Origin: an uncultured Chloroflexia bacterium
Lineage (GTDB): Bacteria; Chloroflexota; Limnocylindria; Limnocylindrales; CSP1-4
Reading direction: 5' to 3'
Length of the DNA stretch: 64,000 nucleotides
Assembly (NCBI GenBank): GCA_963767165.1
Contig: CAVYCV010000008.1
Span: forward strand, 41,978-105,977
Part shown: piece after piece, positions 49,478 to 64,000 of the stretch
Numbering within the stretch: the first letter of the stretch is position 1
How the letters are laid out: the number at the start of each line of letters is the position of its first letter
Made by a program: the position numbers and the translations under genes
The notes under the pieces: generated by a model
Seen by the model: the letters and a program-made list of their open reading frames with translations, nothing else
Databases searched by the model: none
What the model was told of the DNA's origin: nothing

Positions 49478-49587
49478 CGGTCCCACGTCGACGACGACCC
49501 GATGGTCGGGTTGCGCGTTCCGCCCGCGCCACGCATCATGCCGCCGGGCCGGCGGGTGATCGGCCACCTCACGGGGAACCCACCGAC

Positions 49588-50327: not shown

Positions 50328-53147
50328 CTACGACGCCGCCAGCATCCAGATACCCGGGTCGGGGTCGGCGGGATCGCCGTCGATCTCGGCGAACGCCTCG
50401 ACCGCGCGGCGCAGGTGGATCATCGCGTCCGCTTCGCGACCCGTGGCGTGAAGCATGTCGGCGAGGTGGTTCTCGACGGCCGCTTCGAGGTGGCGATCGC
50501 CGATCCGACGACAGGTCGCCACCGCCACCTCGCAATGCGCCACGCCGGCGTCCAGCGCGCCGCCCGCGGCCTCGGCCATCGCGAGCGCCACCAAGGCGGC
50601 GATCGAGGCCGTCGGGTCAGGGTCCGCCTCCGCGGCGGCCAATGCGAGCTCCAGCGACCGCCGCGCGGTGGCCGAGTCGCCGCGGTCCAGGGCGACGAGG
50701 CCCTGCATCCGGTGGGCGGCACCGGCCGACGCCCGGTCGCCGGCGCGGATCGCCTCGACGAGAGCGTCGGTCGCCGCGGTCGCGGCCCCGTCAGGGTCCC
50801 CCGCGCGACGACGCACCACCGAGCGGTCGACGAGCATCCGGGCGCGCAGACGACCCTCGTCGCAGGTTGCCAGCGCGAGTTCGAGATGCCGATCAGCGGC
50901 CGTGAGGTCACCTCGTCGGATGTGTACGCGCGCGAGGGCCAGCTCGAGCTCGGGGAGGTCGGCCGGCTCGGCCAGCGCCGCCGCCGCCTCGAGCGACGCG
51001 ATCGCCCCCGCGTAGTCGCCGAGCCGGGTCCTCAGCGCGCCGATGGCCGCGCGAAGCTCGACCACATCCGCATGCCCGAGCGCCAGAGCTCCCGAGTAGT
51101 GACCGATCGCGTCGCCGTTCGCGAAGAGCCCGGCGGCCCGATCGCCAGCCTCCTTGAACGCCCGGGCCGCCGCGTCATCCCGCCCGGCATCCCGCTCGTG
51201 CTGCGCGATCTGGACGAGTCGGCCGAGGTCGTCGCGACCCGACCCCCCGAGGTCCATCCGTAGCGCCTCGGCGATCCGTCGGTGCAGGAGGCGGCGTCGA
51301 GCCAGGCTGGTCGCCTCGTCGACGAGGTCGCGCAGCGCGCCATGGGCGAAGTCGTATCGGATCTCGGCGTCGAGCGTGCCGACCGCCTCGCGGACGAGGG
51401 CCCGATGCACGAGTTCGTCGACCGCCTCGACGACCTCGTCCTCGGATCGGCCACTGGCGTATCGGACGGACGGAAGGTCGAACGAGCGCCCGATGGCAGC
51501 AGCGGCCACGAGGACCTGCTCGGCGGTGCCGCCGACCGCAGCCAGCCGCTGCCGGAGCACGGCCCGCACGCTGTCGGGCATGCCGGCGTCGGAGACGTCG
51601 CCTCGCGCCAGGGTCTCGACGACGTAGAGTGGCAGGCCCTCCGACGCCGTCAGCAGCGAATCGACCGCCGCTGGCGACGCCGAATCGACGCCGGTCGCGG
51701 CGGCGACGAGCCGGCCGACATCCGCGCGCTCGAGGCGATCGAGCTCGACCACCGTCGTGGCAGGATCTCGCTCGACCTGCCCGGCGAACGCGAGTCCCTG
51801 ATCGTCGAGCTCCTCGTGTCGCCAGGTCAGCAGCAACACGATCGGGCGACCGGCGAGCCGTCGGGCGAGGTACGCGAGCGCGTCCAGCGATGCCGCGTCG
51901 GCCCACTGGAGGTCGTCGAGCCAGAGGACGCCCGGTGGCGATCCGGCGACGCTTGCGGTCACCCCGTCGGCGATCGCGGCGACGAGCCGTGCCTGCGCGC
52001 CCGGACCGTCGGCCCCGCCGGAGCGAGCCGTCGCCTCGATGGCCGGGAGCAGTCGGTGGAGCTCGGTGCCGACAGCCGGATCGAGGGCGCGGATGCGCGT
52101 CGCCGACGAGGCATCGGCCAGGGCGGACCGGAGCAGCTCGACGATCACGCCGTAGGCGATCGCACGCTCCGTGGCATGGGCCCGAGCCGCAACGACGACG
52201 CCACCGTCCTCGCGGACAGCGTCGGCGAACGCCTCCGCGAGCCGCGTCTTGCCGATCCCGGCTTCGCCGACGAGGACGACGATCCGACCGACATCGGTGG
52301 CCTCGGAGCGCACTGCGGCGAGGCGCGCCAGCGCGTCATCGCGGCCCACGAGTGGGAGTGTCCGCGGGCCCGGGACGACCGCCGGTCGGCGAATCACGGC
52401 GCGATCCGACCTGACCACGGCTGCGTCGCGGATCGCCTCGTACCGGGCGGTGGTCTCATCGAGCGGGGGGACGCCCAGCTCGCGTTCGAGAACCGCCACG
52501 CAGATCCGATACTGACGGAGCGCGGCGGGCCGATCCCCGTGCGCCACGAGCAGGTCCATGAGCCGGACGTGGGCCGCCTCATCGAGTGGGTCCAGCTCGA
52601 CTCGGCGCATGGCTGCTGCGATCGCGCCGGGAAGGTCGCCTGCGCTCACCAGGGCCGCCGAGAGATGGTCGAGGACGGTTGTGACCGACCGCTCGGCCGC
52701 CATCGCGCGCCCGGCACGCCAGTCGTCGAAGTCGGGGCTGTCCCGGAGCGTGAATCCCGCCAGGAAGGGGCCGCGGGCGAGGTCGGCGGCGCGGGCGAGG
52801 TCGCGAGGCAGGGTCGAGCGAGCCAGACGCTCGATGTCCTGGAGGTCGACCCGGACGGCCGCGCGCACGAGATCGACTCTGGAGCGATCGATGCGCAGGG
52901 GACCCTCGCCGACCGCCGTCCGGAGCGCCGACAGCGTCCGACGGAGCGCACCCCGTGCAGCAGCGTCATCGGCATCCGGCCAGAGCAGCGCCGCGAGCTC
53001 GTCGCGGGCATACGGCCGCTGATCGGCCGCGAGCACGAGGAGGATCGCCACCGCCTTGCGCGTGTCAACGACGATCGGGACGCCGTCCACGGAGATCTCC
53101 GGTGGACCCAACAGGCGGATGTCGAGATGCGGTGTCGAACGACTCAT
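50328..53147 (-). CDS. AfsR/SARP-family regulator: OmpR-type winged-helix plus BTAD plus NB-ARC-like ATPase plus TPR
   Basis: N-terminal DIRLLGPPEISVDG...LLVLAADQ, BTAD helices, P-loop GEAGIGKTRL, C-terminal TPR-like repeats. Confidence 0.7.
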   Translation of the reverse strand: MSRSTPHLDIRLLGPPEISVDGVPIVVDTRKAVAILLVLAADQRPYARDELAALLWPDADDAAARGALRRTLSALRTAVGEGPLRIDRSRVDLVRAAVRVDLQDIERLARSTLPRDLARAADLARGPFLAGFTLRDSPDFDDWRAGRAMAAERSVTTVLDHLSAALVSAGDLPGAIAAAMRRVELDPLDEAAHVRLMDLLVAHGDRPAALRQYRICVAVLERELGVPPLDETTARYEAIRDAAVVRSDRAVIRRPAVVPGPRTLPLVGRDDALARLAAVRSEATDVGRIVVLVGEAGIGKTRLAEAFADAVREDGGVVVAARAHATERAIAYGVIVELLRSALADASSATRIRALDPAVGTELHRLLPAIEATARSGGADGPGAQARLVAAIADGVTASVAGSPPGVLWLDDLQWADAASLDALAYLARRLAGRPIVLLLTWRHEELDDQGLAFAGQVERDPATTVVELDRLERADVGRLVAAATGVDSASPAAVDSLLTASEGLPLYVVETLARGDVSDAGMPDSVRAVLRQRLAAVGGTAEQVLVAAAAIGRSFDLPSVRYASGRSEDEVVEAVDELVHRALVREAVGTLDAEIRYDFAHGALRDLVDEATSLARRRLLHRRIAEALRMDLGGSGRDDLGRLVQIAQHERDAGRDDAAARAFKEAGDRAAGLFANGDAIGHYSGALALGHADVVELRAAIGALRTRLGDYAGAIASLEAAAALAEPADLPELELALARVHIRRGDLTAADRHLELALATCDEGRLRARMLVDRSVVRRRAGDPDGAATAATDALVEAIRAGDRASAGAAHRMQGLVALDRGDSATARRSLELALAAAEADPDPTASIAALVALAMAEAAGGALDAGVAHCEVAVATCRRIGDRHLEAAVENHLADMLHATGREADAMIHLRRAVEAFAEIDGDPADPDPGIWMLAAS

Positions 53148-53218
53148 CGCGTAACGGTACCCACTTGGACGGTCATCCCGTAACGTTTCGGTGACGCCGA
53201 CCCCGGAGGATCCCGCCG

Positions 53219-54427
53219 ATGAGACGCCGGCCGATCGCCATCGCGACGTGGCTCGTGACGATGGTCATGTGTCTCGGAGCGCTGCTCTTGATCATCGCCA
53301 CGCGCGACACACCCGTCCCGCCGTCGTGGGGGTTCCCGGGGGCGTCCGTGGCCTTCGGCATCACCTGCGGCACCGTTGGCGTGATCGTCGGCGTGCGACG
53401 ACCGGATAATCTCGTCGGGTGGCTGTTCGGCATCATCGGCATCTGCTTCGCCCTCGAGGCGTTCGTCAACGAGTACGTCATCGTCGCGACCTTCGTGGTC
53501 CCTGGCGGTCTGCCCGCGACGATCCCGCTTGGCTGGACGCTTGCATGGCTGTGGGTGCCGTCGCTCGGCATCGCCCTGATCCTGCTCCCGCTGTTCTTCC
53601 CGACCGGGCACCTGCTGTCACCGCGATGGCGGGCGGTCGTCGCCCTGGGGTTCATCGCGATCGCGGCCTTCGCGGTGGCGATGGCCCTCGCTCCCGGGCC
53701 GATCCAACAGGCCCCATTCGTCGACAACCCGCTCGCGATCACGGGGCTGGACGCCGTGACCTACGGCGCCGTGGTCCTCGGTACGACCCTGATTCCCCTC
53801 ACCGCCGCGATCGCCCTGAGCATGTGGTCTCTGGTCCTGCGGTTCCGTCGGGCCTCGAGCGAGACGCGCCAGCAGATCAAGTGGTTCGCCCTGGCCGTGC
53901 TCATCGCCGGGGCGGTCTTCGCGGTGTACATCACCATCTCGGTCCTCTCGCCACGTCAGTCGCCGAAGGTGCTCGAGGTCCTGGTCGTGCTGTCGCTGAT
54001 GGGACTCCCGGCGGCCGCCGGCATGGCGATCCTGCGGTATCGCCTCTACGACATCGACCGGATCATCAGCCGGACGATCGGCTACGCGGTCGTGACCGCC
54101 GTGTTGTTCGCTGCGTTCATCCTCGTCAACCTCGTCCTCCAGAACGTCATCACCCGCCTCACGGGTGATGACTCGCCGCTCACGGTCGCGATCTCCACGC
54201 TGGTCGTCGCGGTCCTCTTCGCCCCCGTCCGAGCGCGCGTCCAGGTGGTCGTGGACCGCCGGTTCCATCGGGCCCGCTACGACGCCGAGCGGACGACGAT
54301 CGCGTTTGCGGAGCGCCTCCGCGACCAGGTCGACCTCCCGACGCTCGCAAGCGACCTCGACGCGACGGTTCGGACGGTGATCGCCCCCGCGAGCATCGGC
54401 CTGTGGCTGCGTAGGAGCGGACGATGA
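53219..54427 (+). CDS. polytopic membrane 'sensor module' paralog 1 (about 8 TM helices plus conserved cytoplasmic helical tail; no output domain)
   Basis: Conserved motifs FPTGHLLSPRWR, QIKW, ILRYRLYDIDRIISRTIGY, VDRRFHRARYDAERT, WLRR. Confidence 0.6.
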   Translation: MRRRPIAIATWLVTMVMCLGALLLIIATRDTPVPPSWGFPGASVAFGITCGTVGVIVGVRRPDNLVGWLFGIIGICFALEAFVNEYVIVATFVVPGGLPATIPLGWTLAWLWVPSLGIALILLPLFFPTGHLLSPRWRAVVALGFIAIAAFAVAMALAPGPIQQAPFVDNPLAITGLDAVTYGAVVLGTTLIPLTAAIALSMWSLVLRFRRASSETRQQIKWFALAVLIAGAVFAVYITISVLSPRQSPKVLEVLVVLSLMGLPAAAGMAILRYRLYDIDRIISRTIGYAVVTAVLFAAFILVNLVLQNVITRLTGDDSPLTVAISTLVVAVLFAPVRARVQVVVDRRFHRARYDAERTTIAFAERLRDQVDLPTLASDLDATVRTVIAPASIGLWLRRSGR

Positions 54428-55581
54428 CGCGCGCGAACTGGCCGGTCCGCGTCGCGGCGGGGTCGGCCGTCATCGTGACCGGGATCGCATCGCTCGCGGG
54501 CTGGCTGTCGACGTCGGATCCAGGGTTGCCGCCCATCTGGATCATCGACGTCGCGGCGTACGTCTCTGTCGGGGTCCTCATCGGCGAGCGACGTCGCGGC
54601 AACGCGCTCGGCCTGATCCTCTTGGCGATGGGGTTCCTCATCGCCGCCTACGCCGCGGCGGACGTGGTCCTCCGGTGGCCCGAGCCGCCGGCTGTCGCGG
54701 CCTACCTCGCGTGGCTGGTGTCGCTGCTGGACGCGCCACTGTTCGCGATGGTCGCGTTCCTCTTCCTGTTGTTCCCGGATGGTCGGCTCCCCTCGCCGCG
54801 GTGGCGATGGGTCGGGCTGGCCGTCCTGGTGTTCGGGGCGATCTCGCTGGTGGGGACGGCCGTAGCGCCGGGGCCATTCCCCTTCTACCCGGCCTTCTCG
54901 AATCCGTTCGGCATCGAGGGACCGCCCGTCGTCGATGTCGTCTCGGTGTTCTACCTGCTCACGATCGCCTGCGTCGGCGCCTCGGTGCTGTCCCTCATCG
55001 GTCGTTGGCGGGTCGGCGGCCCCGTCGAGCGCGCGCAGCTCAAGTGGGTCACGGCCGCCGCGGGGCTGATCGCCACGGTCATGGTCGCCTACGCGGTCCT
55101 CTTCGGCCCTCGCAACTTCAACGACGTCGCCGACCTGGCGGTCGCGCTCGCGCTCGCCTTCTTCCCGATCGCCATCGGGGTCGCGATCCTCCGCTACCAC
55201 CTGTTCGAGATCGACCGGCTGGTCAGCCGCACCATCGCCTACATCGTCGTCACGGCGCTGCTGATCGCCGCCTATGTGAGCGCGATCCTGCTGCTCCAGG
55301 GCCCGCTCGGGGCGATCACGGGCGGCGAAACGATCTCGGTGGCACTCTCGACGCTGGTCGCCGCGGCGCTCTTCCAGCCGCTGCGTCGCCGGGTCCAGAC
55401 GATCGTCGACCGACGGTTCGACCGCGCCCGGTTCGATGCCGAACGGACGTCGATCGCGTTCTCGGAGCGGCTCCGCGGCGAGGTCGATATCGCCGCGCTC
55501 AGCGCGGACCTCGACGCGACGGTGCGATCGTCCCTGCGACCCGCGGCCATGGGCCTGTGGCTCCGCGAGGTGACGGGCTGA
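54424..55581 (+). CDS. membrane sensor module paralog 2
   Basis: Same motif set (FPDGRLPSPRWRW, ILRYHLFEIDRLVSRTIAY, RFDRARFDAERT). Overlapping stop/start with paralog 1. Confidence 0.6.
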   Translation: MTRANWPVRVAAGSAVIVTGIASLAGWLSTSDPGLPPIWIIDVAAYVSVGVLIGERRRGNALGLILLAMGFLIAAYAAADVVLRWPEPPAVAAYLAWLVSLLDAPLFAMVAFLFLLFPDGRLPSPRWRWVGLAVLVFGAISLVGTAVAPGPFPFYPAFSNPFGIEGPPVVDVVSVFYLLTIACVGASVLSLIGRWRVGGPVERAQLKWVTAAAGLIATVMVAYAVLFGPRNFNDVADLAVALALAFFPIAIGVAILRYHLFEIDRLVSRTIAYIVVTALLIAAYVSAILLLQGPLGAITGGETISVALSTLVAAALFQPLRRRVQTIVDRRFDRARFDAERTSIAFSERLRGEVDIAALSADLDATVRSSLRPAAMGLWLREVTG

Positions 55582-56744
55582 TGCTTCGGCTCTGGCTGAT
55601 CCGGATCGCGTCGGTCTCGTCGATCGCGATCGCGCTCGCGGCCACGATCGTCAACGCGGCTCGCGGCTGGCCGAACGGCGGCCTCTACCCCCTGTACGGC
55701 GCGGTCGCCGGCGTCTTCATCGTGGTCGGTTGGCTCATCACCGAACGCCGACCGGGGAATGTGGTCGGTCCGCTGTTGGTCGCGTTCGGCGCGCTGTTCG
55801 CCTGGTATCTGCCGGCCGACCTGTATCTCCACGTTCCGGCCGATCCGCCGGGCGCCCCGTACGCAGCGTTGTTCGTCAGCATCCTCGACGCTCCGATGTT
55901 CATCGTGGTGGCGCTGGTGCTGATCCTGTTTCCCGACGGGCGACCACCGACGCCACGATGGCGATGGACGATCAGCGCCGGGGTGCTCGCCATCGTGTCC
56001 GTCGCGGTCGGACAGACACTCCAGCCTGGGCCGCTCCGGCTCTTCCCCGAACACGAGAACCCACTCGGGATGGCCGGGTTCCCTGGCGATGCACTCGTCG
56101 CTCTCGGCTACATGGTCATGCTGGTTCTGCTGGTCTCCGCAGCTGTCGCGCTGATGGTGCGTTGGCGAAGCGGGACCGCGACCGAGCGGACCCAGATCAA
56201 GTGGGTGGCCGGGGCGACCGTCGTGCTGGTCGCCACTGAGGTCGTCAACGTCGCGACGTTCCGCCCCGACCAGATAGACAGCGTCACTACCCTCGCGGCA
56301 AGCATCGGCATCGCCCTGGTCCCGATCGCGATGGGCATCGCGATCCTGCGCTACCGCCTGTACGAGATCGACCGGATCATCAGTCGATCGATCTCGTACG
56401 CGGTCGTGACGGGCATCCTGGTGTCCGTGTACGCGGCCGGCATCCTGCTGCTGCAGGCCGCGCTGTCGACCGTCACCCAAGGGCAGACGGTGGCGGTCGC
56501 TGCGTCCACCCTGGCCGTGTTCGCGCTCTTCCAGCCCGTTCGGCGCCGCGTCCAGCGGACGGTCGATCACCGCTTCGACCGAGCGCGTTACGACGCTGGG
56601 CGGACCTCCATCGAGTTCGGCGAGCGGCTGCGGAACGAGGTGGACATGGGCGCCGTGACGGGCGATCTCGTGCGAACAGCCCGGGTGAGCGTCGCTCCGT
56701 CGATGCTGGCCGTCTGGCTGCGTGGTCGCGAGGTGCCGCGATGA
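55581..56744 (+). CDS. membrane sensor module paralog 3
   Basis: Same motif set. ATG overlaps the paralog 2 stop (TGATG). Confidence 0.6.
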   Translation: MLRLWLIRIASVSSIAIALAATIVNAARGWPNGGLYPLYGAVAGVFIVVGWLITERRPGNVVGPLLVAFGALFAWYLPADLYLHVPADPPGAPYAALFVSILDAPMFIVVALVLILFPDGRPPTPRWRWTISAGVLAIVSVAVGQTLQPGPLRLFPEHENPLGMAGFPGDALVALGYMVMLVLLVSAAVALMVRWRSGTATERTQIKWVAGATVVLVATEVVNVATFRPDQIDSVTTLAASIGIALVPIAMGIAILRYRLYEIDRIISRSISYAVVTGILVSVYAAGILLLQAALSTVTQGQTVAVAASTLAVFALFQPVRRRVQRTVDHRFDRARYDAGRTSIEFGERLRNEVDMGAVTGDLVRTARVSVAPSMLAVWLRGREVPR

Positions 56745-57976
56745 CCGCTCGCACGACGACATCGTCCTGGACGGCGCGCGTCGTCTGGGCCACCACGATG
56801 GTGGGACTCATCGCGATCGGGCTGTCGGTCTGGATGTCGGCCACCGTGTCGGGCCGGGCCCCCACGGTGGACGCGGTCGGCGCCGCGACATCTCAGGCCT
56901 TGACGCTCGTCGCGTTCCTCCTCTCGGGGGCCATCATCGTCGCGCGGCAACCGCGCAACGTCGTCGGTTGGCTGCTGATGGTCCCGGGGCTCGGCCTGCC
57001 CCTGACCGCGATCGCCAGCGCGTGGCTGGTCAGCCTCGATCCACCGCCGACGCACGTCGACCCCGGCTTGTGGCTGATCCTGTGGGCGACGACGTGGTCG
57101 TGGCTGCTCCTCATCTTCCCGGTCTTCGGGTTGCTCCAGGCATTTCCGGACGGTCGTCTTCCCTCGGCGCGATGGCGGTGGCTCGTCGGGCTGGAGGTCG
57201 CGATGGTCGTGGCGTTCGCCGGGCCGTTGTCGGCCCTCACCGACGAGATGGGCGTGCTCCTGAACGACGAGACCGTCTGGACGGTCTCGAACCCGATCGG
57301 GATCCTCGACAGCGAGGCGGTCTGGAGCTCTTGGTTCGACACGATCTGGAGCCTCGGTCTCCTGATGGTGACCGTGGCCAGCGTCCTCGCGGTGGTCACC
57401 CGCTTCCGACGTGGCACGGCCGAGGAGCGCCAGCAGATCAAGTGGCCGGTGTTGGCCGTCACGTTCTTCGGGGTGGTGTACGGCACGAGCTCCCTCACGG
57501 CCGGTGATACCACGGAGATCTGGAACATCCTGTTCTTGGTCGCCATCACCGCGATCCCGGTCGCGGTGGCGATCGCCGTCCTCAAGTACCACCTTTACGC
57601 GATCGACCGGATCATCAGCCGGACGATCGGCTGGACCCTCGCGAGCGGGTTCCTCGTGATCGTCTTCGCTGTGACGATCCTCGCGACCCAGGCCGCGCTG
57701 TCCTCGTTCACACAAGGTCAGACCATCGCCGTGGCGGCATCGACGCTCATCGTCTTCGCGCTCTTCCAGCCCGTCCGCCGGCGTATCCAGGGCGCGGTCG
57801 ACCGGCGGTTCGATCGCGCCAAGTTCGATGCGGACTTGACCATCCGCGGCTTCGGCACTCGCCTGCGCGACGATGTCGATCTCGATGTCGTCCGCGGGGA
57901 GATCACGCGGACTGCGGATGCCGCGGTCCGCCCGACGGCGGCGGCGATCTGGCTTCGGGGGGAGTCGCCTTCATGA
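56741..57976 (+). CDS. membrane sensor module paralog 4
   Basis: Same motif set (FPDGRLPSARWRW, VLKYHLYAIDRIISRTIGW, RFDRAKFDADLT). Confidence 0.6.
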   Translation: MTARTTTSSWTARVVWATTMVGLIAIGLSVWMSATVSGRAPTVDAVGAATSQALTLVAFLLSGAIIVARQPRNVVGWLLMVPGLGLPLTAIASAWLVSLDPPPTHVDPGLWLILWATTWSWLLLIFPVFGLLQAFPDGRLPSARWRWLVGLEVAMVVAFAGPLSALTDEMGVLLNDETVWTVSNPIGILDSEAVWSSWFDTIWSLGLLMVTVASVLAVVTRFRRGTAEERQQIKWPVLAVTFFGVVYGTSSLTAGDTTEIWNILFLVAITAIPVAVAIAVLKYHLYAIDRIISRTIGWTLASGFLVIVFAVTILATQAALSSFTQGQTIAVAASTLIVFALFQPVRRRIQGAVDRRFDRAKFDADLTIRGFGTRLRDDVDLDVVRGEITRTADAAVRPTAAAIWLRGESPS

Positions 57977-58061
57977 CCGGCCGGCCGATCCATGTCGTCG
58001 CCGTGACGATGCCCGCCGCCGTAACGATTCCCGGACGACCCGCACCTATGGTGACCGCGAG

Positions 58062-59693
58062 ATGACGGAATTGACCCGCCCGATCCGCCGCCTCCTCGGC
58101 CGCCGTGAGGTGGCCCACGAGTCGGCCGCCGTCCCCACGCCCGATGACGCCGTGGCGACGACTCGGACTCCGGACGATCCCACGATCGCGGTCGACATCC
58201 CGGAGTCGGACCCGCTCCTCGCGTACCTCCAGACGGCCCCCGGACCGGTGGAGATCGCCAGGCTCGAGCTCGACTCGCCAGCTGTCCGCGCCATGCGCGA
58301 GGCGGGGGTGGCCCTCGTCGTCCCGCTCGTCTCGCAGGGCGAGCTCATCGGGACGCTCAACCTCGGACCACGCCTCTCGGAGCAGGACTACTCGACCGAC
58401 GACCGGCGACTCCTCACCACGCTGGCGGCGCAGGCCGCACCCGCCATCCGCGTCGCCCAGCTCGTCCGCGAGCAAGCCGCCGAGGCCGCGGAGCGCGAAC
58501 GACTCGAGCAGGAGATGCGGGTCGCGACGCTCATCCAGCAGCAGTTCCTGCCGCGCGAGCTGCCGAAGCTCGATCAGTGGCAGATCGCGGCCTACTACGG
58601 CCCGGCGCGCGCGGTCGGCGGCGACTTCTACGACTTCATCGAGATGCCCGATGGCCGCATCGGCATCGCCGTCGGCGACGTGACCGACAAGGGCGTGCCC
58701 GCGGCGCTGGTGATGGCCCGGACGCACTCGGTCCTGCGCGCCGAGGCATCACGATCCGACTCGCCGGGCGTCATCCTCGCCCGCGCCAACGACCTGCTCG
58801 TGCCGGAGATGCCCGCCCGGATGTTCGTGACGTGCCTCTTCGCCATCCTGGAGCCGGAGACGGGCCGCATCGTCCTCGCGAACGCCGGGCACAACCTGCC
58901 GTACGTCCGGACGGAAGACGGGGTGATCGAGCTGCGCGCGACCGGGATGCCGCTCGGGCTCATGCCCGGGATCGTCTACGAGGAGACGGAAGGCGTCATC
59001 GATCAGGGCAGCAACGTCTTGCTCTACTCGGACGGCCTCGTCGAGGCCCACGACCCGGCGAGCCAGATGTTCGGCTTCCCGCGCCTCCGCGAGGCGATGA
59101 CGATCGACGACGCCGGCAGCGAACTGCTCGACCGATTGCTCGACGACCTGCATCGCTTCACCGGCGCGGACTGGGAGCAGGAGGACGACATCACGCTCGT
59201 CACCCTGCGCCGCGCGTCCGGCGTCGCCGGCCACGAGGGCTCGCCCGGCGGGGCGTCCGCGATCGTCACGGCCTTCTCCGTCCCGGGCGAGGAGGGGAAC
59301 GAGCGACTGGCCATGGATCGCGTCGCCGCGGCCGTGGCCGACCTCGGCCTCGCTCCGGCGCGACTCGAGCGGCTCAAGACGGCCGTGAGCGAGGCGGCGA
59401 TGAACGCGATCGAGTACGGCAGCCAGGGCGACGCGAACGTGCCGGTGGACCTCGTCGTCGAGACGACCGATGCCGACGTCGTCGTCCGCATCACCGACCG
59501 CGCCCTGTCGGGGGTCGTCCCCGACGACACCGAGACCCCCGATATCGAGCGCAAGCTCGCCGGCGAGCAGAAGCCGCGCGGCTGGGGGCTCTTCCTGATC
59601 AAGAGCATGGTGGATTCGATGGACGTGACCACCGACGGGTCGTCCCAGACCGTGACCCTGACGATGGCGCGCAAGGAGCCCAGCGATGGATGA
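58062..59693 (+). CDS. GAF-PP2C (SpoIIE/RsbU-type) serine phosphatase fused to a C-terminal HATPase_c anti-sigma-type serine kinase domain
   Basis: PP2C motifs (GDFYDF...GDVTDKGVPAAL...DGLVEA). C-terminal GHKL ATPase resembling RsbW/SpoIIAB (NAIEYG, GWGLFLIKSMVD). Confidence 0.75.
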   Translation: MTELTRPIRRLLGRREVAHESAAVPTPDDAVATTRTPDDPTIAVDIPESDPLLAYLQTAPGPVEIARLELDSPAVRAMREAGVALVVPLVSQGELIGTLNLGPRLSEQDYSTDDRRLLTTLAAQAAPAIRVAQLVREQAAEAAERERLEQEMRVATLIQQQFLPRELPKLDQWQIAAYYGPARAVGGDFYDFIEMPDGRIGIAVGDVTDKGVPAALVMARTHSVLRAEASRSDSPGVILARANDLLVPEMPARMFVTCLFAILEPETGRIVLANAGHNLPYVRTEDGVIELRATGMPLGLMPGIVYEETEGVIDQGSNVLLYSDGLVEAHDPASQMFGFPRLREAMTIDDAGSELLDRLLDDLHRFTGADWEQEDDITLVTLRRASGVAGHEGSPGGASAIVTAFSVPGEEGNERLAMDRVAAAVADLGLAPARLERLKTAVSEAAMNAIEYGSQGDANVPVDLVVETTDADVVVRITDRALSGVVPDDTETPDIERKLAGEQKPRGWGLFLIKSMVDSMDVTTDGSSQTVTLTMARKEPSDG

Positions 59694-60018
59694 CCGCACG
59701 TTCGGTGCCGAAGTGACGGAGGTGCCCGACGAGGTCCGGGTCCGTCTCAGTGGTGACCTCAATGCCCGCGCCGACGAGACCCTGGCCGGCGCTTACGCCA
59801 AGGTCGTGGACATCGGCTCACGCCGGGTCAGCCTCGACTTCGGGCATGTCGGCTACATCAACAGCACCGGGATCGCCCTCGTCGTCCGGCTGCTCGCGGA
59901 CGCCCGCCGGGACGGGCGGACGGTCCGGGCGGTCGGGCTCAACGAGCACTACCGGGAGATCTTCCGGATCACGCGGTTGTCGGACTACATGGAGATCGTG
60001 GAGGGAGATGCGGCATGA
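59686..60018 (+). CDS. STAS-domain anti-sigma-factor antagonist 1
   Basis: SpoIIAA-like fold, phospho-acceptor region YINSTGIA. Confidence 0.7.
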   Translation: MDDRTFGAEVTEVPDEVRVRLSGDLNARADETLAGAYAKVVDIGSRRVSLDFGHVGYINSTGIALVVRLLADARRDGRTVRAVGLNEHYREIFRITRLSDYMEIVEGDAA

Positions 60019-60362
60019 GCGCGACCGTCATCGAGTCGGACCTGCGAGGGTCGACCGCGATCCTGCGGATCCACGGCGACATCACGTCCGCGAGCGAGGG
60101 GGACCTCTCGGCGGCCTACGGCCGGGCGATCGACGCGGGCGCATCGACGGTGATCCTCGACTTCGCCGGGCTCGAGTACATGAACAGCGGTGGCATCGGC
60201 CTGTTGGTGACGCTCCTGGTCCGCGCCCAGCGCGGCGGTGCGCACCTGATGGCGACCGGGCTGTCCGAACACTACCGCCAGATCTTCGAGCTGACACGCC
60301 TCGACGAGGCGATCGCCATCCACCACGACGAAGCCGCGGCCGTGGCGGCCGCGTCCGCCTGA
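60015..60362 (+). CDS. STAS-domain anti-sigma-factor antagonist 2
   Basis: Paralog of antagonist 1 with YMNSGGIGLL. Overlapping start. Confidence 0.7.
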   Translation: MSATVIESDLRGSTAILRIHGDITSASEGDLSAAYGRAIDAGASTVILDFAGLEYMNSGGIGLLVTLLVRAQRGGAHLMATGLSEHYRQIFELTRLDEAIAIHHDEAAAVAAASA

Positions 60363-60382: not shown

Positions 60383-61126
60383 ATGAGCGATCCGCTTCCC
60401 ACCGATCAGAGCGGTCGCGACGCGGGCAACTGGGCCCGTCCCGTGGATCGCCTGTCCGCCGCCGGCGTCGAAGGCGCCAAGGTCGACTCGGTCAGCGGCA
60501 AGCGCGTGTCCGGGCCGCTCCAGGGCTTCGGCCAGCTGTGGCAGAAGACCTTCAAGGTTCGCCTGGACGGCACCCATCTTTCGCCGACCGAGCTCATCGC
60601 CACTTGGAAGGAGCGCTTCCCGACCTTCTGGCCGAGCGGTGCCCGGTTCTACGCCCCGCTCGCAGGGATCGCGCCGGGCGAGGTCGCCCTACTCGATATC
60701 CCGCCGGTGCCCGGGTCCCCGGTCAAGCTGTCGACCGGCGTCATGGTCCTCTATGCGGACGACGAGTCGTTCACGTTCACGACGCCCGAAGGCCATACCC
60801 TGTCGGCATGGATCACGTTCTCCGCGTTCCGCGATGGCGATGTCACCGTCGCCCAGGCGCAGGCCCTCGAGCGAACGTCCGACCCCTTCGACGAACTCGC
60901 GTACGTGCTCGGCGCGAACAAGATGAACGACCGGTTCTGGCGTCAGACCCTGGAGAACCTTGCGCGGCACGTGGGCGTCGCCGAGCCGGCGGTCGAGACG
61001 CAGATCGTCTGCGTCGACAAGCAGCGGCAATGGCGCCAGGCCGGCAACGTGCGCAACAGCGCCACGCTGCGGACCGCCCGACACACGCTGACGGCGCCCA
61101 TCCGCTGGGTCACCCGTCGGGGGTGA
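60383..61126 (+). CDS. conserved hypothetical protein (possibly DUF1990-like)
   Basis: GAGGAG 7 nt upstream of ATG. No motif recognised with confidence. Confidence 0.4.
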   Translation: MSDPLPTDQSGRDAGNWARPVDRLSAAGVEGAKVDSVSGKRVSGPLQGFGQLWQKTFKVRLDGTHLSPTELIATWKERFPTFWPSGARFYAPLAGIAPGEVALLDIPPVPGSPVKLSTGVMVLYADDESFTFTTPEGHTLSAWITFSAFRDGDVTVAQAQALERTSDPFDELAYVLGANKMNDRFWRQTLENLARHVGVAEPAVETQIVCVDKQRQWRQAGNVRNSATLRTARHTLTAPIRWVTRRG

Positions 61127-61139
61127 GGCCCGAACGATC

Positions 61140-62573
61140 GTGACCGCGCCGACGTTCGACGCCATCGTCGTCGGCGCCGGACCCAACGGGCTCGCCGCGG
61201 CGATCACGCTGGCCCGTGCCGGTCGCTCGGTCCGCGTCTACGAGGCCGCACCACGGGTCGGCGGGGGCACTCGGACCGAGGAGCTGACCCTGCCCGGGTT
61301 CCGCCATGACGTCTGCTCGACGATCCTGCCGCTGGCCCTCGCGTCGCCGTTCTTCCGGACCCTCGACCTGGCGAGCCGCGGCGTGGAGTTCATCTACCCG
61401 GAGGCGCCGTTCGCCCACCCCCTCGACGGCGGCATGGCGGCCGTCCTGGCGCGGTCCGTCTCGGCGACGGCAGCGGGTCTCGGCACCCACGACGGCCGGG
61501 CGTGGCGACGACTCTTCGCCCCGTTGGTCCGCTCGGCCGACGACCTCGGCGCCGAGCTCCTGCGCCCCGTCGTTCACGTACCACGCCACCCACTCCTCCT
61601 CGCGCGGTTCGGCCTGCCGGCACTGCGCTCCGCGGAGGGCCTCGCCCGCTCAGCGTTCCGCGACGAACCGGCGCGCGCGCTCTTCGCCGGCGTCGCGGCC
61701 CACGCGATGATCGCCCTCGATCGCCCGTTGAGTGCCTCGTTCGGGCTCGTGCTCGCCACCTATGCGCATGCCGTCGGCTGGCCGATGGTCCGCGGCGGCG
61801 CAGTCGCCGTCGCGGATGCGATGGCGGCGGAACTCATGGCGTGCGGCGGGGAGATCGTCACCGACCATCGCGTCATGTCGCTCGACGAGCTGCCGCGCGC
61901 GAGGGCGACGCTCCTTGACGTGACCCCGCGGCAGGCGATCGCGATCGCCGGCGACCGGCTCGACGGCCGCGTCCGGCGTCGTGCGGCACGCTTCCGCTAC
62001 GGAGCTGGGGTCTTCAAGGTCGACTGGGCCCTCGACGGTCCGGTCCCATGGGCGGCAGACGGTCCGCGCCGAGCGGCCACGGTCCACCTCGGCGGCACGC
62101 TCGCGGAGGTCGCAGCCTCCGAAGCCGAGGTCGCGGCCGGCGGTCATCCCGACCGTCCGTACGTCCTCTTCGTCCAGTACGCGCCGTGGGACCCGACCCG
62201 GGCGCCCGAGGGCAAGGCGACGGCGTGGGCCTACTGCCACGTGCCGGCCGGGTCGACGGTCGACATGACGGCGCGGATCGAGGCCCAGGTCGAACGCTTC
62301 GCGCCGGGCTTTCGCGACCGGATCCTGGCCCGCGCGACCCATTCGCCGGCCGAGATAGAGGCGCACGACGCGAACTACATCGGCGGCGACATCAACGGCG
62401 GCATCGAGGACGTCCGCCAGCTCATCTTCCGACCGTGGCCGTCCCTCGACCCGTACCGCCTTGGAGACTCCGGTCTCTACCTGTGCTCGTCCTCGACGCC
62501 GCCGGGCGGCGGCGTGCACGGCATGAGCGGGATGCTGGCCGCGCGGTCCGCCCTACGCCACGAGCTGCGCTGA
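61140..62573 (+). CDS. FAD/NAD(P)-dependent oxidoreductase, phytoene desaturase (CrtI)-like
   Basis: N-terminal FDAIVVGAGPNGLAAA dinucleotide-binding motif. CrtI-family C-terminal region. Confidence 0.7.
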   Translation: MTAPTFDAIVVGAGPNGLAAAITLARAGRSVRVYEAAPRVGGGTRTEELTLPGFRHDVCSTILPLALASPFFRTLDLASRGVEFIYPEAPFAHPLDGGMAAVLARSVSATAAGLGTHDGRAWRRLFAPLVRSADDLGAELLRPVVHVPRHPLLLARFGLPALRSAEGLARSAFRDEPARALFAGVAAHAMIALDRPLSASFGLVLATYAHAVGWPMVRGGAVAVADAMAAELMACGGEIVTDHRVMSLDELPRARATLLDVTPRQAIAIAGDRLDGRVRRRAARFRYGAGVFKVDWALDGPVPWAADGPRRAATVHLGGTLAEVAASEAEVAAGGHPDRPYVLFVQYAPWDPTRAPEGKATAWAYCHVPAGSTVDMTARIEAQVERFAPGFRDRILARATHSPAEIEAHDANYIGGDINGGIEDVRQLIFRPWPSLDPYRLGDSGLYLCSSSTPPGGGVHGMSGMLAARSALRHELR

Positions 62574-63266
62574 AGCCTCGTCGTCCGTGCCGCCGAGCTC
62601 GCGGCGCAGCCAAAGGCCGAGGATGAGGGCCCCGACCGCCGGCACGGCCGTCCACGCGGTGAACACCAGCAGGGTGACCGTGATGATCGCCTGCACGTCG
62701 GCCACCGTCCCGATGCCGGCATCCAGGCGATCCGCCAGATCCCCGAGACGCACCCCGAGCGAGGTCATCGCCGCGGCGTTCGCCTCCAACGACGATCGAT
62801 TGCCGAGCAGGCTGTCGCTGACCGTGTCGAGTCTCGTGTCGAGACCGTCGAGCCCGGAACTGATCCCGGCGACGACGTCGGCTGCGTTCGCGAGGGGCTG
62901 ATTGCCGAGGATGTTGATCGAGCGGAACTGGCCCTCGAGGTCGGCGAGCCGCGGCTGGACCGACCGGACCGTGTCGGCGGCCTGAGCGACCGTCGCCGCG
63001 GTCGCGCTCAGAGTGCCGCCGAAGGACTCGGCGGTCGCGCCGGTGACGGTCAGGAGGTTCGCGGTCTCATCGAGCGACGCGATCACGGCGTCGACCTGGA
63101 CCTGGGCCCGTTGAGCCAGCGCATCGATGCGGCCGCCGACCCAGACGAGGGCGGCCAACCCGAGCAGCGCGACGATCAGCCCGATGGCGCCGTACACCAG
63201 CAAACCCGTCGAGAGCCGGCGCAGGCCGGATCGGAGGCCAGGGGGCCGTTCCGGGCTTGCGCTCAC
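62553..63266 (-). CDS. bitopic membrane protein with coiled-coil extracytoplasmic region
   Basis: GTG overlapping the MBL gene stop (GTGA). TM helices at both ends. Confidence 0.4.
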   Translation of the reverse strand: MSASPERPPGLRSGLRRLSTGLLVYGAIGLIVALLGLAALVWVGGRIDALAQRAQVQVDAVIASLDETANLLTVTGATAESFGGTLSATAATVAQAADTVRSVQPRLADLEGQFRSINILGNQPLANAADVVAGISSGLDGLDTRLDTVSDSLLGNRSSLEANAAAMTSLGVRLGDLADRLDAGIGTVADVQAIITVTLLVFTAWTAVPAVGALILGLWLRRELGGTDDEASAQLVA

Positions 63267-64000
63267 CCGCGGTACTCGAAGTGGTCGCCGATGGCGGTCG
63301 GGATGCTGCGGACCGCCGGCATCAGCTCGGCCACGAACGCGGTGAAGTCGCGCGGTGGCTCGACCAGCCGCCTCGGATACACCCGGCCCATCGCATGCGG
63401 CCAGTACGTGCCCCAGTGGATGGGCATGACGGCGTGAGGCCGGATGAGCCGCAACGCGTCGACCGCGCTCAGCGGGTCGAGATGGCGTCCGCGTCCCAGC
63501 GTCGGGCCCCATCCCCAGATCGGCAAGAGGGCGAGATCGACCGTACCGGCAAGATCGGCCATCGTGGGGAAGAGGTCGGTGTCGCCGGCGAAGTAGACGG
63601 ACTGGCTGCCGCGAAGCACGAAGCCGAGTGTACCGGCGGCCGGTCCCAGCGGCGGTCGGTATCCGGAATGGCGCGCGGGCACCCCATCGATGCGCACGCC
63701 ACCCACCTCGATCGACTCGCCGGGCAACAGCTCGCGGACGTCGGGGAAGCCGGCGGCCCGAAGCCAGTCGCCTGACCCGTTCGGCGCGACGATCGGGACA
63801 TGCGACCCGAGGAGCCGGAGCGATGGGATGTCGAGGTGATCCCAGTGGAGATGGGAGATGAGGACGAGATCGATGCCGGCGAGTCGCCGACGATCCGGGA
63901 CCGGGACGACGCGACGGAGCGGTCCGATCCGTGCCCGCGTCGCGGGGTCGGTCAGGACCCGTAGCCCATCGAGCTCGATGACCGCCGCGGCATGCCCGAT
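63263..64000 (-). CDS. MBL-fold metallo-hydrolase, 5' end beyond window
   Basis: SHLHWDHL (HxHxDH) motif from translating the minus strand to the window edge. Confidence 0.7.
   Translation of the reverse strand: MGHAAAVIELDGLRVLTDPATRARIGPLRRVVPVPDRRRLAGIDLVLISHLHWDHLDIPSLRLLGSHVPIVAPNGSGDWLRAAGFPDVRELLPGESIEVGGVRIDGVPARHSGYRPPLGPAAGTLGFVLRGSQSVYFAGDTDLFPTMADLAGTVDLALLPIWGWGPTLGRGRHLDPLSAVDALRLIRPHAVMPIHWGTYWPHAMGRVYPRRLVEPPRDFTAFVAELMPAVRSIPTAIGDHFEYRG

What the first reader, a model, noticed from the sequence alone, without database searches (positions are those of the whole stretch)
53219..60362. Four tandem kinase-less membrane 'sensor modules' feeding a fused RsbU-RsbW-like phosphatase/kinase and two STAS antagonists
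Four co-directional, translationally coupled paralogs (about 385-411 aa) each have about 8 TM helices. They share motifs FPDGRLPSPRWRW, QIKW, ILRY(R/H)LY(D/E)IDRIISRTI and a cytoplasmic tail VDRRF(D/H)RARYDAERT...ERLR..VD...L..DL...V...WLR. I recall this block as the N-terminal sensor region of some actinobacterial histidine kinases, but that is memory and not checked. Every copy ends exactly where a kinase core would begin. They sit immediately upstream of a GAF-PP2C-HATPase_c fusion protein and two STAS proteins, and no cognate sigma factor is adjacent. The arrangement suggests an undescribed multi-input partner-switching device. The detached sensor modules may modulate a phosphatase/kinase that sets STAS phosphorylation.
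Basis: partly seen in the sequence, partly recalled or inferred. Interest (0 to 1): 0.7.

Follow-up and report, generated by a model that had tools for sequence, protein, structure and literature searches.

The report
Sensor domain split across several genes
Four tandem membrane-receptor genes each carry the first piece of a GAF sensor domain, and the rest of that domain starts the phosphatase/kinase gene downstream; in related bacteria all of this is one protein, so this looks like a natural split sensor with interchangeable receptor halves.

Summary
Four overlapping paralogs (402, 385, 387 and 411 aa, 34-44% identical) precede a GAF-PP2C-HATPase_c_2 protein and two STAS proteins. There are two corrections: each module has 10 TM helices rather than about 8, and it ends inside a GAF domain rather than where a kinase core would begin.

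The decisive evidence comes from fused relatives. Among the 150 closest cluster representatives of the PP2C protein, 58 carry a full module in front as one polypeptide. Module M2 (residues 46-381) and the PP2C protein (37-386) tile fused protein P0264 at 60-395 and 399-748. Pfam GAF covers P0264 371-491, which is the whole profile and spans that junction. On its own, the window's PP2C protein has only a partial GAF: AF2 finds two real strands, and Pfam matches only the C-terminal half of the profile.

The split locus is conserved in Chloroflexota (Limnocylindria) and Actinomycetota, with 1-11 modules per locus. It sits next to a divergent AfsR-like regulator, and a strand-specific 18-nt motif precedes both the modules and the PP2C gene.

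My best reading is that the modules are alternative 7TM inputs that complete the GAF in trans and so set STAS phosphorylation. The fission is shown; the trans-assembly and its signalling role are inferred. I rate it a new variant of partner-switching.

The parts
50328..53147 (-). AfsR-like regulator of 939 aa (SARP/BTAD, AAA_16/NOD and TPR domains), transcribed divergently from the module operon
   Evidence: Pfam BTAD 8.9e-16, AAA_16 1.1e-23 and TPR_12. An ortholog lies next to the module array in 62% of related loci longer than 15 kb.
53150..53160 (+). Upstream half-site CGTAACGGTAC, right beside the regulator's start codon
   Evidence: It is conserved in many Limnocylindria loci.
53179..53196 (+). 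18-nt motif CGTAACGTTTCGGTGACG (hexamers GTAACG and GTGACG 11 nt apart), ending 22 nt before the M1 ATG
   Evidence: In related loci the motif occurs 68 times on the gene strand and never on the other strand; 33 of these are upstream of a module.
53219..54427 (+). Module M1 (402 aa): 10-TM receptor-like protein with a cytoplasmic stalk and GAF alpha1-beta1 tail (tail at 54329-54412)
   Evidence: It matches the PrsK model at positions 133-345.
54424..55581 (+). Module M2 (385 aa); tail at 55483-55566
   Evidence: Residues 46-381 align to fused protein P0264 residues 60-395 (37% identity, E 5e-45).
55581..56744 (+). Module M3 (387 aa); tail at 56640-56723
56741..57976 (+). Module M4 (411 aa); tail at 57875-57958
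   Evidence: Its closest relative, at 69% identity, is in another genome.
58020..58037 (+). Second copy of the 18-nt motif (CGTAACGATTCCCGGACG), ending 24 nt before the PP2C ATG, followed by TATGGT at 58047-58052
   Evidence: In 24 related loci the same motif lies a near-fixed distance (mostly 19-28 nt) upstream of the PP2C start codon.
58062..59693 (+). Phosphatase/kinase protein (543 aa). It has a basic N-terminal peptide (58062-58106), a disordered linker (58107-58181), a partial GAF lacking alpha1-beta1 (58182-58466), a long linker helix (58395-58544), a SpoIIE/PP2C domain (58647-59213) and an HATPase_c_2 domain (59304-59663).
   Evidence: Pfam, AF2 and Foldseek, which hits only GAF domains with 80-104 of about 150 columns aligned. 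Residues 37-386 align to P0264 residues 399-748 at 60% identity.
59686..60018 (+). STAS protein 1 (110 aa), with a Ser in the position of the phosphorylated Ser of SpoIIAA (YINSTG)
   Evidence: Pfam STAS/STAS_2 and the NCBIfam anti-sigma-antagonist model. The Ser was read from the sequence by eye.
60015..60362 (+). STAS protein 2 (115 aa), with the equivalent Ser (YMNSGG)
   Evidence: The Ser was read from the sequence by eye.
60383..61126 (+). Conserved 247-aa protein with no confident family assignment
   Evidence: It follows the STAS genes in nearly all related loci. Only a weak Cupin_6 hint was found.
61140..62573 (+). FAD-dependent amine-oxidase/phytoene-desaturase-like protein (477 aa)
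   Evidence: Pfam NAD_binding_8 and Amino_oxidase. It is conserved in the split loci and also next to a fused relative in L085.

Best explanation
The locus is a partner-switching system whose membrane sensor has been cut off within a domain and then multiplied.

The ancestral protein, which still exists in many bacteria, reads 10 TM helices, cytoplasmic stalk, GAF, PP2C phosphatase and, in some, an RsbW-like Ser kinase. Here the gene is broken in the variable loop after the first helix and first strand of the GAF. The N-terminal piece (a 7TM-type receptor bundle, two more TM helices, the stalk and GAF alpha1-beta1) is present in four diverged copies. The C-terminal piece, a GAF missing alpha1-beta1 followed by PP2C and kinase, is present once.

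I propose that a module tail docks into the incomplete GAF of the soluble protein and completes its beta-sheet. The state of the bound module would then be passed through the GAF and the long linker helix to the PP2C domain, shifting the balance between dephosphorylation and phosphorylation of the two STAS proteins. Because the four modules differ mainly in the TM bundle and outer loops but share the cytoplasmic face and tail, they would act as alternative or competing inputs into one output.

The divergent AfsR-like regulator probably drives both halves, and also orphan modules elsewhere in the genome, from a shared 18-nt operator.

Shown: homology, the fission inside the GAF, the incompleteness of the GAF, conservation of the locus, and the motif. 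Inferred: trans-assembly, sensing, direction of control, the target of the STAS/kinase pair, and binding of the regulator to the motif.
For: 1. Fused relatives exist. Of the best 150 cluster representatives for the PP2C protein, 58 have an N-terminal extension of at least 300 aa that matches the module profile through its tail, and 24 more have a shorter extension that includes the tail.

2. The two window proteins tile a fused protein end to end. M2 46-381 aligns to P0264 60-395, and PP2C 37-386 aligns to P0264 399-748.

3. The break lies inside a GAF domain. In fused proteins Pfam GAF spans the junction over the whole profile: P0264 371-491 covers profile 3-133, P0266 408-547 covers 1-133, and P0247, P0261 and P0283 behave likewise. 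The last 25-30 module residues are therefore GAF positions 1 to about 30.

4. The window's PP2C protein has only a partial GAF. Pfam matches only profile positions 81-133. In the AF2 model residues 1-40 are disordered and only two real strands form. GAF structures align over only 80-104 columns. The module model ends in an unpaired segment.

5. The break falls at a variable loop. In 86 fused proteins the loop between the WLR strand and the DPL helix is 10-59 aa (10th to 90th percentile).

6. The split form is conserved. Of 48 related loci longer than 15 kb, 69% carry modules together with the PP2C ortholog and STAS genes, with 1-11 modules per locus (median 5), in Chloroflexota and Actinomycetota including Kribbella. 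A fused relative sits in a matching fused-STAS-oxidase cluster.

7. The modules have variable inputs and a conserved output face. Over 161 modules, the cytoplasmic loops and the TM8-to-tail region carry 2.2-3.6 bits per column, against 0.7-1.9 for TM1-7 and the outer loops.

8. Each window paralog has closer relatives in other genomes (59-69% identity) than in the window (34-44%), so the copies are old and individually kept.

9. Tails of paralogs in one genome are more alike than tails of equally diverged modules from different genomes, for example 56% against 43%. The window shows no long identical DNA tracts that would indicate recent gene conversion.

10. [quoted passage not shown]
Against: No direct evidence of binding was obtained. 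A chimeric or multimer structure prediction was not possible. Joining a tail to the partial GAF did not extend the Pfam GAF match, so at profile level the tail is recognised as GAF only through the fused homologs.

About 30% of long related loci hold a single orphan module with no PP2C gene nearby, so modules may also work without it or at a distance.

The within-genome similarity of tails could come from old gene conversion rather than co-adaptation, and the pairs in that test are not independent.

The signal or signals and the final target are unknown. No sigma factor is adjacent.

Many of the representatives are metagenomic and some may be fragments or mis-called fusions. However, the fused lengths recur (about 735-1008 aa), and P0246 and P0264 were each found on several contigs.
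Confidence: 0.62

Rival explanations
1. The split is an evolutionary relic with no trans-assembly. The modules now act on their own, for example signalling through another partner or doing some membrane job. The PP2C protein would be regulated only through its remaining partial GAF or its N-terminal peptide, and adjacency would reflect ancestry and co-expression.
For: Orphan modules lie far from any PP2C gene in about 30% of long loci. No binding data exist. The joined tail plus partial GAF does not improve the Pfam match.
Against: Both halves of the GAF are strongly conserved in the split lineages: 2.2-2.7 bits per column for the tail, and near-invariant partial-GAF residues across 116 sequences. 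A GAF missing a strand of its sheet is unlikely to be stable alone (inference). Orphan modules keep the tail and the same upstream motif. Tails are more alike within a genome.
Confidence: 0.17
2. The modules are membrane anchors or scaffolds, or titrating inhibitors, rather than sensors. They would complete the GAF and hold the phosphatase/kinase at the membrane, and regulation would come from how many copies are expressed rather than from ligands.
For: The outer loops are very short, with little exposed surface. Copy number varies from 1 to 11. A shared operator suggests expression-level control.
Against: The paralogs are old and individually conserved across genomes. Divergence is concentrated in the 7TM bundle, which resembles receptor folds. 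That pattern is expected for different specificities rather than for redundant anchors.
Confidence: 0.15
3. The split is an artefact: frameshifts or assembly errors broke one or more full-length fused genes or histidine kinases.
For: Some long-read MAG loci (L003, L023, L041, L064) do contain frameshifted, fragmented modules, and some database 'proteins' of 570-670 aa are mis-joined tandem copies.
Against: Of 332 tails, nearly all stop within 20 aa after WLR and are followed by a new start codon. The same architecture is seen in short-read and long-read assemblies from many studies and in an isolate genome (Kribbella, L081). The PP2C protein has its own conserved N-terminal peptide and an upstream motif at a near-fixed distance.
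Confidence: 0.01
4. The modules are a cassette system. Alternative N-terminal sensor genes would be recombined in front of the PP2C gene to make different fused proteins, as in a shufflon or in antigenic variation.
For: Tandem diverged copies share a conserved 3' end next to a single acceptor gene.
Against: No recombinase is present in the locus. The paralogs are only 63-74% identical at the DNA level over the conserved 3' parts, with no long identical tracts or inverted repeats. Every copy has its own start and stop codon, and copies overlap translationally.
Confidence: 0.02

Closest known systems
Single-chain 10TM-GAF-SpoIIE(-HATPase_c_2) phosphatases (for example P0264, whose cluster includes HEX8929012.1 'GAF domain-containing SpoIIE family protein phosphatase' from Actinomycetota, and P0246, 947 aa). 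These are annotated only; I found no experimental study.
   Same: They are homologous over the whole length: 37% identity to the module part and 56-60% to the GAF/PP2C part. P0246 is followed by a STAS gene and the same FAD-oxidase gene.
   Different: In the window the protein is cut inside the GAF domain, and the N-terminal part is present in four copies (1-11 elsewhere). The soluble part has gained a conserved basic N-terminal peptide.
HsbR-HsbA (Pseudomonas aeruginosa) and CrsR-CrsA (Shewanella oneidensis) partner switches
   Same: One protein carries both the PP2C phosphatase and the GHKL kinase/anti-sigma domain and acts on a STAS antagonist encoded beside it (PMC6482189).
   Different: Their input is a receiver domain phosphorylated by a phosphorelay. 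Here the input is a partial GAF, apparently completed by membrane modules. There are two STAS proteins, and the target is unknown.
Mycobacterium tuberculosis Rv1364c (PAS-PP2C-kinase-STAS in one chain)
   Same: It has the same order of phosphatase and anti-sigma kinase, and it occurs in an actinobacterial setting (mentioned in PMC12143880).
   Different: It has a PAS input, a fused STAS and no membrane modules.
Bacillus stressosome inputs (RsbR paralogs feeding RsbT and then RsbU)
   Same: Several paralogous sensors with variable sensing parts and a conserved output part converge on one PP2C phosphatase of a partner-switching cascade (general knowledge; the RsbT-RsbU mechanism is in PMC12143880).
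   Different: The proteins and the coupling are unrelated. RsbR uses STAS domains in a large cytoplasmic complex and releases a kinase. Here 7TM-type membrane proteins would supply a missing part of the phosphatase's own sensor domain.
Histidine kinases with a HisKA_7TM or PrsK-type membrane region
   Same: The TM bundle is related. M3 scores 28.0 bits against HisKA_7TM, M1 194-398 matches PrsK model positions 133-345, and a HisKA_3 kinase in L036 shares TM1-8.
   Different: The modules carry no kinase core. They have two extra TM helices and a stalk/GAF-start tail, and their closest fused relatives are PP2C phosphatases.
Donor-strand complementation in chaperone-usher pili (a conceptual analogue only)
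   Same: An incomplete beta-sheet fold is completed by a strand from another polypeptide, and different donors can occupy the same site (general knowledge).
   Different: The fold, the process and the function are unrelated. For this locus complementation is inferred, not shown.
AfsR (SARP-NOD-TPR) of Streptomyces coelicolor and its afs box
   Same: The divergent regulator has the same domain order. The 18-nt motif has two repeats 11 nt apart. If placed like the afs box (-40 to -19; PMC10936776), the transcription start falls on the ATG of M1 and on the ATG of the PP2C gene.
   Different: The repeat sequence differs. Binding was not tested. The regulated genes here are a signalling operon, not antibiotic genes.

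Membership tests
Partner-switching module (RsbU/RsbW/RsbV type) | PP2C/SpoIIE-type Ser phosphatase domain | tested here: met
   Pfam SpoIIE 4.7e-49, profile 1-191 of 192. The metal-binding Asp motifs (GGDFYD, GDVTDKG, SDGL, DDIT) were read in the sequence by eye.
Partner-switching module (RsbU/RsbW/RsbV type) | RsbW/SpoIIAB-like GHKL Ser kinase / anti-sigma domain | tested here: met
   Pfam HATPase_c_2 2.2e-19. NCBIfam spIIAB 7.3e-10 and RsbW 1.6e-7, both below their equivalog cut-offs.
Partner-switching module (RsbU/RsbW/RsbV type) | Single-domain STAS antagonist with a phosphorylatable Ser | tested here: met
   Two STAS proteins. A Ser is present at the SpoIIAA Ser58-equivalent position in both, by eye.
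Partner-switching module (RsbU/RsbW/RsbV type) | A defined target (sigma factor or other protein) released or bound according to STAS phosphorylation | not testable with these tools
   No sigma factor lies within about 12 kb. The target is unknown.
HsbR/CrsR-type fused phosphatase-kinase response regulators | N-terminal receiver domain | tested here: not met
   There is no Response_reg hit. The N-terminus is a disordered linker followed by a partial GAF.
HsbR/CrsR-type fused phosphatase-kinase response regulators | PP2C followed by an HATPase kinase in one chain, with an adjacent STAS gene | tested here: met
GAF domain (Pfam PF01590) | A complete domain (profile about 1-133) within one polypeptide | tested here: not met
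   The PP2C protein matches only profile 81-133 (46-133 at best). Fused homologs cover 1-133 across the module/PP2C junction.
HisKA_7TM (Pfam PF16927) | Score at or above the gathering cut-off (28.6 bits) | tested here: inconclusive
   M3 scores 28.0 bits (profile 6-222 of 224). M1, M2 and M4 have no hit. Many close homologs carry a precomputed PF16927 hit.
HisKA_7TM (Pfam PF16927) | Followed by a histidine-kinase core in the same protein | tested here: not met
   Every module stops after WLR.
Single-chain 10TM-GAF-SpoIIE(-HATPase_c_2) phosphatases | Homology over the membrane region, tail, GAF and PP2C | tested here: met
Single-chain 10TM-GAF-SpoIIE(-HATPase_c_2) phosphatases | All parts in one polypeptide | tested here: not met
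   The window has separate genes with their own stops and starts. The same holds in 41 related loci.
Stressosome (RsbR/RsbS/RsbT) | Sensor paralogs with a C-terminal STAS domain, plus an RsbS scaffold and an RsbT kinase | tested here: not met
   The modules have no STAS domain. No RsbS- or RsbT-like genes were seen in the locus.
AfsR-type SARP-NOD-TPR regulators | BTAD, a STAND/AAA NTPase and TPR repeats in one protein | tested here: met
   The N-terminal winged-helix part was read by eye only.
AfsR-type SARP-NOD-TPR regulators | Binds direct repeats 11 bp apart that overlap the -35 region | not testable with these tools
   The motif has the right geometry and placement, but binding was not tested.

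The most novel reading that the evidence does not exclude
The GAF domain is assembled in trans from two polypeptides, and the 4 (elsewhere 1-11) diverged 7TM modules exchange or compete for the single phosphatase/kinase. Which receptor is docked, and its ligand state, would then set STAS phosphorylation. This would be a natural one-to-many split-domain receptor system, co-regulated by an AfsR-like activator through a dedicated operator.
Probability: 0.45. Interest if true: 0.85.

Novelty: new variant of a known kind. Interest (0 to 1): 0.72.

Why it matters
Bacterial sensors are usually described as chains of whole domains. In this locus a sensor domain itself appears to be divided between two gene products, and the divided state has been kept in two phyla with a varying number of alternative N-terminal halves.

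If the halves do assemble, this would be a simple way to feed many membrane signals into one phosphatase/kinase switch. It would also be a natural example of a sensor domain assembled from interchangeable parts, useful as a template for engineered split sensors. It would assign a function to a large family of unannotated roughly 390-aa membrane proteins: more than 6,300 clusters matched at E 1e-5 or better. Finally, it links an AfsR-type regulator to a partner-switching operon outside antibiotic biosynthesis.

Tried and rejected
1. A Pfam scan of artificial tail-plus-partial-GAF chimeras did not extend the GAF match. The NCBIfam PrsK model gave two colinear stretches for the M1 chimera, which is only weak support.

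2. A homolog search with the PP2C N-terminus returned only short fragments. That tool appears not to list hits longer than about 1.75 times the query, so it cannot reveal fusions. The fused forms came from the representative search instead.

No heteromer model could therefore be made.

4. Sequence searches of the PDB with the module profile and the tail profile found nothing meaningful.

5. The neighbourhoods of orphan modules showed no recurring partner.

6. The sigma-70 promoter and terminator scan gave nothing useful in this high-GC DNA.

7. My first motif pattern used the wrong spacer (N6) and found nothing. The corrected N5 pattern worked.

Full report
**What is in the window**

The four paralogs are M1 53219-54427 (402 aa), M2 54424-55581 (385 aa), M3 55581-56744 (387 aa) and M4 56741-57976 (411 aa). 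Their stop and start codons overlap (ATGA or TGATG). They are 34-44% identical and share the quoted motifs.

After an 85-nt gap comes a 543-aa protein (58062-59693). Pfam finds SpoIIE (4.7e-49), HATPase_c_2 (2.2e-19) and a GAF match that covers only the last third of the GAF profile (residues 75-129, profile 81-133). Two STAS proteins follow at 59686-60018 and 60015-60362. The public record calls the same products. There is no adjacent sigma factor; an ECF sigma/RskA-type pair lies about 12 kb upstream.

**The modules are a real, widespread stand-alone family**

A search with M3 gave more than 6,300 clusters at E 1e-5 or better. Almost all of the best 120 are 375-425 aa long. The few proteins of 570-670 aa are tandem copies joined by gene-calling or frameshift errors. 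That tool seems not to list hits longer than about 1.75 times the query, so it cannot show true fusions.

In 84 related loci I counted 332 module tails. Nearly all stop within 20 aa after the WLR motif, and the exceptions read through into the next tandem copy. Truncation by assembly error is excluded.

**Anatomy of a module**

Hydropathy and the AF2 model of M3 (pLDDT 89) give 10 TM helices with both ends in the cytoplasm. All arginine-rich conserved motifs lie on cytoplasmic loops. TM10 continues as a long cytoplasmic helix to residue 352, a short helix follows (356-370), and the last 17 residues, including AVWLR, are unpaired.

Across 161 modules, the cytoplasmic loops and the region from TM8 to the tail are strongly conserved (2.2-3.6 bits per column). 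TM1-7 and the outer loops are variable (0.7-1.9 bits). This gives a variable input part and a constant output face.

M3 is just under the HisKA_7TM cut-off (28.0 against 28.6 bits). M1 194-398 matches positions 133-345 of the PrsK kinase model. One related locus encodes a HisKA_3 kinase whose N-terminus is homologous to TM1-8.

**The downstream protein has an incomplete GAF**

The AF2 model of residues 1-175 used 116 sequences. Residues 1-40 are disordered. Residues 41-165 are confident but contain only two real strands (85-91 and 94-101), a two-residue bridge, two short helices and the long C-terminal helix (112-161) that leads into the PP2C domain.

Foldseek finds only GAF domains, aligned over 80-104 columns of targets about 145-177 residues long. 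In the DevS GAF chains (about 153 aa) the strand equivalent to ELIGTLNLG starts at about residue 108. Here only about 53 ordered residues precede it.

**Fused relatives show where the missing piece is**

An exhaustive HMMER search with the 543-aa protein returned 98,420 hits. I analysed the best 150 cluster representatives:

- 58 have an N-terminal extension of at least 300 aa that matches the module profile through its tail. Ten of these also have the kinase domain.
- 24 more have a shorter extension that includes the tail.
- 51 have no extension. These are the split form or fragments.

The sequences make the junction explicit. For example, P0246 reads ...IDRRFYRRKYDAEQ...THTSLWF-GGMNGPAAEEAPAIASSDPLLAH...VTLIAPLVSQGELIGLLNLG.

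M2 residues 46-381 align to P0264 residues 60-395 (37% identity, E 5e-45), ending LWLR/LWLQ. The PP2C protein's residues 37-386 align to P0264 residues 399-748 (60% identity, E 1e-134). The two window proteins therefore tile the fused protein with three residues between them.

In the fused proteins Pfam GAF covers the whole profile and spans that junction. P0264 371-491 corresponds to profile 3-133 and P0266 408-547 to profile 1-133. P0247, P0261 and P0283 behave the same way. The module profile ends 25-30 residues inside each of these GAF matches. So the last roughly 28 residues of each module (VDL..L..DL...V...V.P....LWLR) are the first helix and strand of a GAF domain, and the remainder of that domain is the N-terminal ordered part of the PP2C protein.

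The break lies in a loop that already varies from 10 to 59 aa (10th to 90th percentile) in 86 fused proteins.

One fused relative (P0246, locus L085) is followed by a STAS gene and the same FAD-oxidase gene, so the split and fused systems correspond.

**Conservation of the split arrangement**

A scan of species-representative genomes with the tail alignment gave 80 loci. They come from Chloroflexota (Limnocylindria and others) and Actinomycetota: Rubrobacteraceae, Thermoleophilia, Solirubrobacterales, Acidimicrobiia and an isolate, Kribbella sp. VKM Ac-2569.

Of the 48 loci longer than 15 kb, 69% contain modules together with the GAF-PP2C-kinase ortholog and STAS genes, and 62% also contain the AfsR-like regulator. 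Loci with the PP2C gene hold 1-11 modules (median 5). The rest hold single orphan modules in unrelated neighbourhoods.

Two more genes belong to the conserved set: a 247-aa protein with no family assignment (60383-61126) and an FAD amine-oxidase-like protein (61140-62573).

Each window paralog has closer relatives in other genomes (59-69% identity) than in the window, so the duplications are old and the copies are individually retained.

At equal divergence of the membrane body, tails and stalks of paralogs from one genome are more alike than those from different genomes. At 35-40% body identity, for example, tails are 56% against 43% identical. The window paralogs share no long identical DNA tracts (63-74% identity over the conserved 3' parts), so recent gene conversion is unlikely here. 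This fits co-adaptation to one shared partner, but the pairs are not independent and older conversion cannot be excluded.

**Most likely mechanism**

Shown:
- The locus derives from a single-chain 10TM-GAF-PP2C-kinase sensor by a break inside the GAF.
- The N-terminal part is multiplied.
- The soluble part on its own lacks the first helix and strand of the GAF.
- Both parts are conserved.

Inferred:
- A module tail completes the GAF of the soluble protein.
- The module's state is passed through the GAF and the long linker helix to the PP2C domain. This follows the coiled-coil linker mechanism described for RsbU and proposed for GAF-, PAS- and receiver-linked PP2C phosphatases (PMC12143880).
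- The PP2C and kinase domains set the phosphorylation of the two STAS proteins, as in HsbR-HsbA and CrsR-CrsA, where one protein carries both activities (PMC6482189).
- The four modules act as alternative inputs.

What they sense and what the STAS/kinase pair controls are unknown. I put about 0.9 on the fission and split-GAF statement and about 0.6 on the trans-assembly and multi-input mechanism.

**A feature of the split form**

Split PP2C proteins across a wide identity range (42-75%) begin with a short basic amphipathic peptide followed by a variable linker. Examples are MTELTRPIRRLLGR, MTFMESIRRTVGR, MATLLQSMKRIW and MLSFARSLRWVRGR. In fused proteins this position is occupied by the variable loop, and I saw no equivalent peptide in the examples I read. 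It may help the detached protein find the membrane or the modules. That is speculation.

**Regulator and operator**

The divergent 939-aa gene (50328-53147) has the AfsR domain order of BTAD, AAA_16 and TPR.

An 18-nt motif, CGTAACGWT-N5-RACG, consists of two hexamers 11 nt apart. It lies at 53179-53196, 22 nt before the M1 ATG, and again at 58020-58037, 24 nt before the PP2C ATG.

In 1.23 Mb of related loci the motif occurs 68 times on the gene strand and never on the other strand. Thirty-three copies are upstream of a first or orphan module, and 24 are upstream of the PP2C gene, mostly 19-28 nt from its start codon. CGTAACG occurs within 450 bp upstream of the regulator gene in 37 of 39 loci, 59 hits against 1.6 expected.

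The AfsR box is two 11-bp direct repeats spanning -40 to -19 (PMC10936776). With that geometry the transcription start falls on the ATG of M1 and of the PP2C gene, which would make both mRNAs leaderless. M1 is also preceded by a GGAGG sequence, so a short leader cannot be excluded. Binding is untested.

**Comparison and novelty**

The output half is an ordinary partner-switching set: PP2C, an RsbW-like kinase and STAS. The phosphatase and kinase are fused as in HsbR, CrsR and Rv1364c. The single-chain membrane-GAF-PP2C family exists in databases under generic names.

What I did not find described, in full-text searches for split GAF domains, HisKA_7TM or this gene set, is a sensor domain divided between gene products with a conserved, variable-number array of alternative N-terminal halves. 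The nearest functional analogy is the set of RsbR paralogs feeding one phosphatase through the stressosome. The nearest structural analogy is donor-strand complementation in pili. Both involve unrelated proteins.

I classify the finding as a new variant of a known kind. The main weakness is the absence of any interaction test, computational or experimental.

Noticed in passing
window 53179-53196 and 58020-58037 (half-site at 53150-53160); for example L081 12783, L005 16678, L026 9115: A strand-specific 18-nt motif, CGTAACGWT-N5-RACG, lies upstream of module arrays, orphan modules and the PP2C gene. It occurs 68 times on the gene strand and never on the other strand in 1.23 Mb. Its distance to the PP2C start codon is nearly fixed. 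The geometry fits an AfsR-type box and leaderless mRNAs.
   Followed up: partly
window 60383-61126 and 61140-62573: A 247-aa protein with no family assignment and an FAD amine-oxidase/phytoene-desaturase-like protein follow the STAS genes in nearly all related loci. The oxidase also follows the STAS gene next to a fused relative (L085). Both probably belong to the system, but their role is unknown.
   Followed up: partly
window 58062-58106 (PP2C protein residues 1-15): A short basic amphipathic N-terminal peptide (MTELTRPIRRLLGR and variants) followed by a disordered linker recurs in split-form PP2C proteins at 42-75% identity. I saw no equivalent in the fused forms I read. It may be a membrane- or module-docking element.
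   Followed up: partly
window 39631-40470 (-) and 40467-41096 (-): An ECF sigma factor and an RskA-type anti-sigma factor (zf-HC2 plus RskA_C) lie about 12 kb upstream of the locus. This is the nearest sigma factor, and nothing links it to the locus.
   Followed up: partly
L036 6917-8719 (-): A 601-aa HisKA_3/HATPase_c histidine kinase has an N-terminal membrane region homologous to module TM1-8 but lacks TM9-10 and the tail. It lies next to an orphan module.
   Followed up: partly
L003, L023, L041, L064 (module arrays): Several long-read MAG loci have frameshifted, fragmented modules and PP2C genes. Database 'proteins' of 570-670 aa are mis-joined tandem modules. These are assembly or gene-calling noise that could be mistaken for fusions.
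   Followed up: yes
L032, L042, L046, L059, L066: In several Actinomycetota loci the gene order differs: regulator, PP2C, two STAS genes, the 247-aa gene (sometimes duplicated), the oxidase, and only then the module array. The association therefore does not depend on the modules lying directly upstream of the PP2C gene.
   Followed up: partly
window 62553-63512 (-) and 49354-50304 (+): The flanking ORFs of 319 aa and 316 aa have no Pfam match. The 316-aa protein has homologs near the locus in a few related contigs (L007, L017, L025).
   Followed up: no
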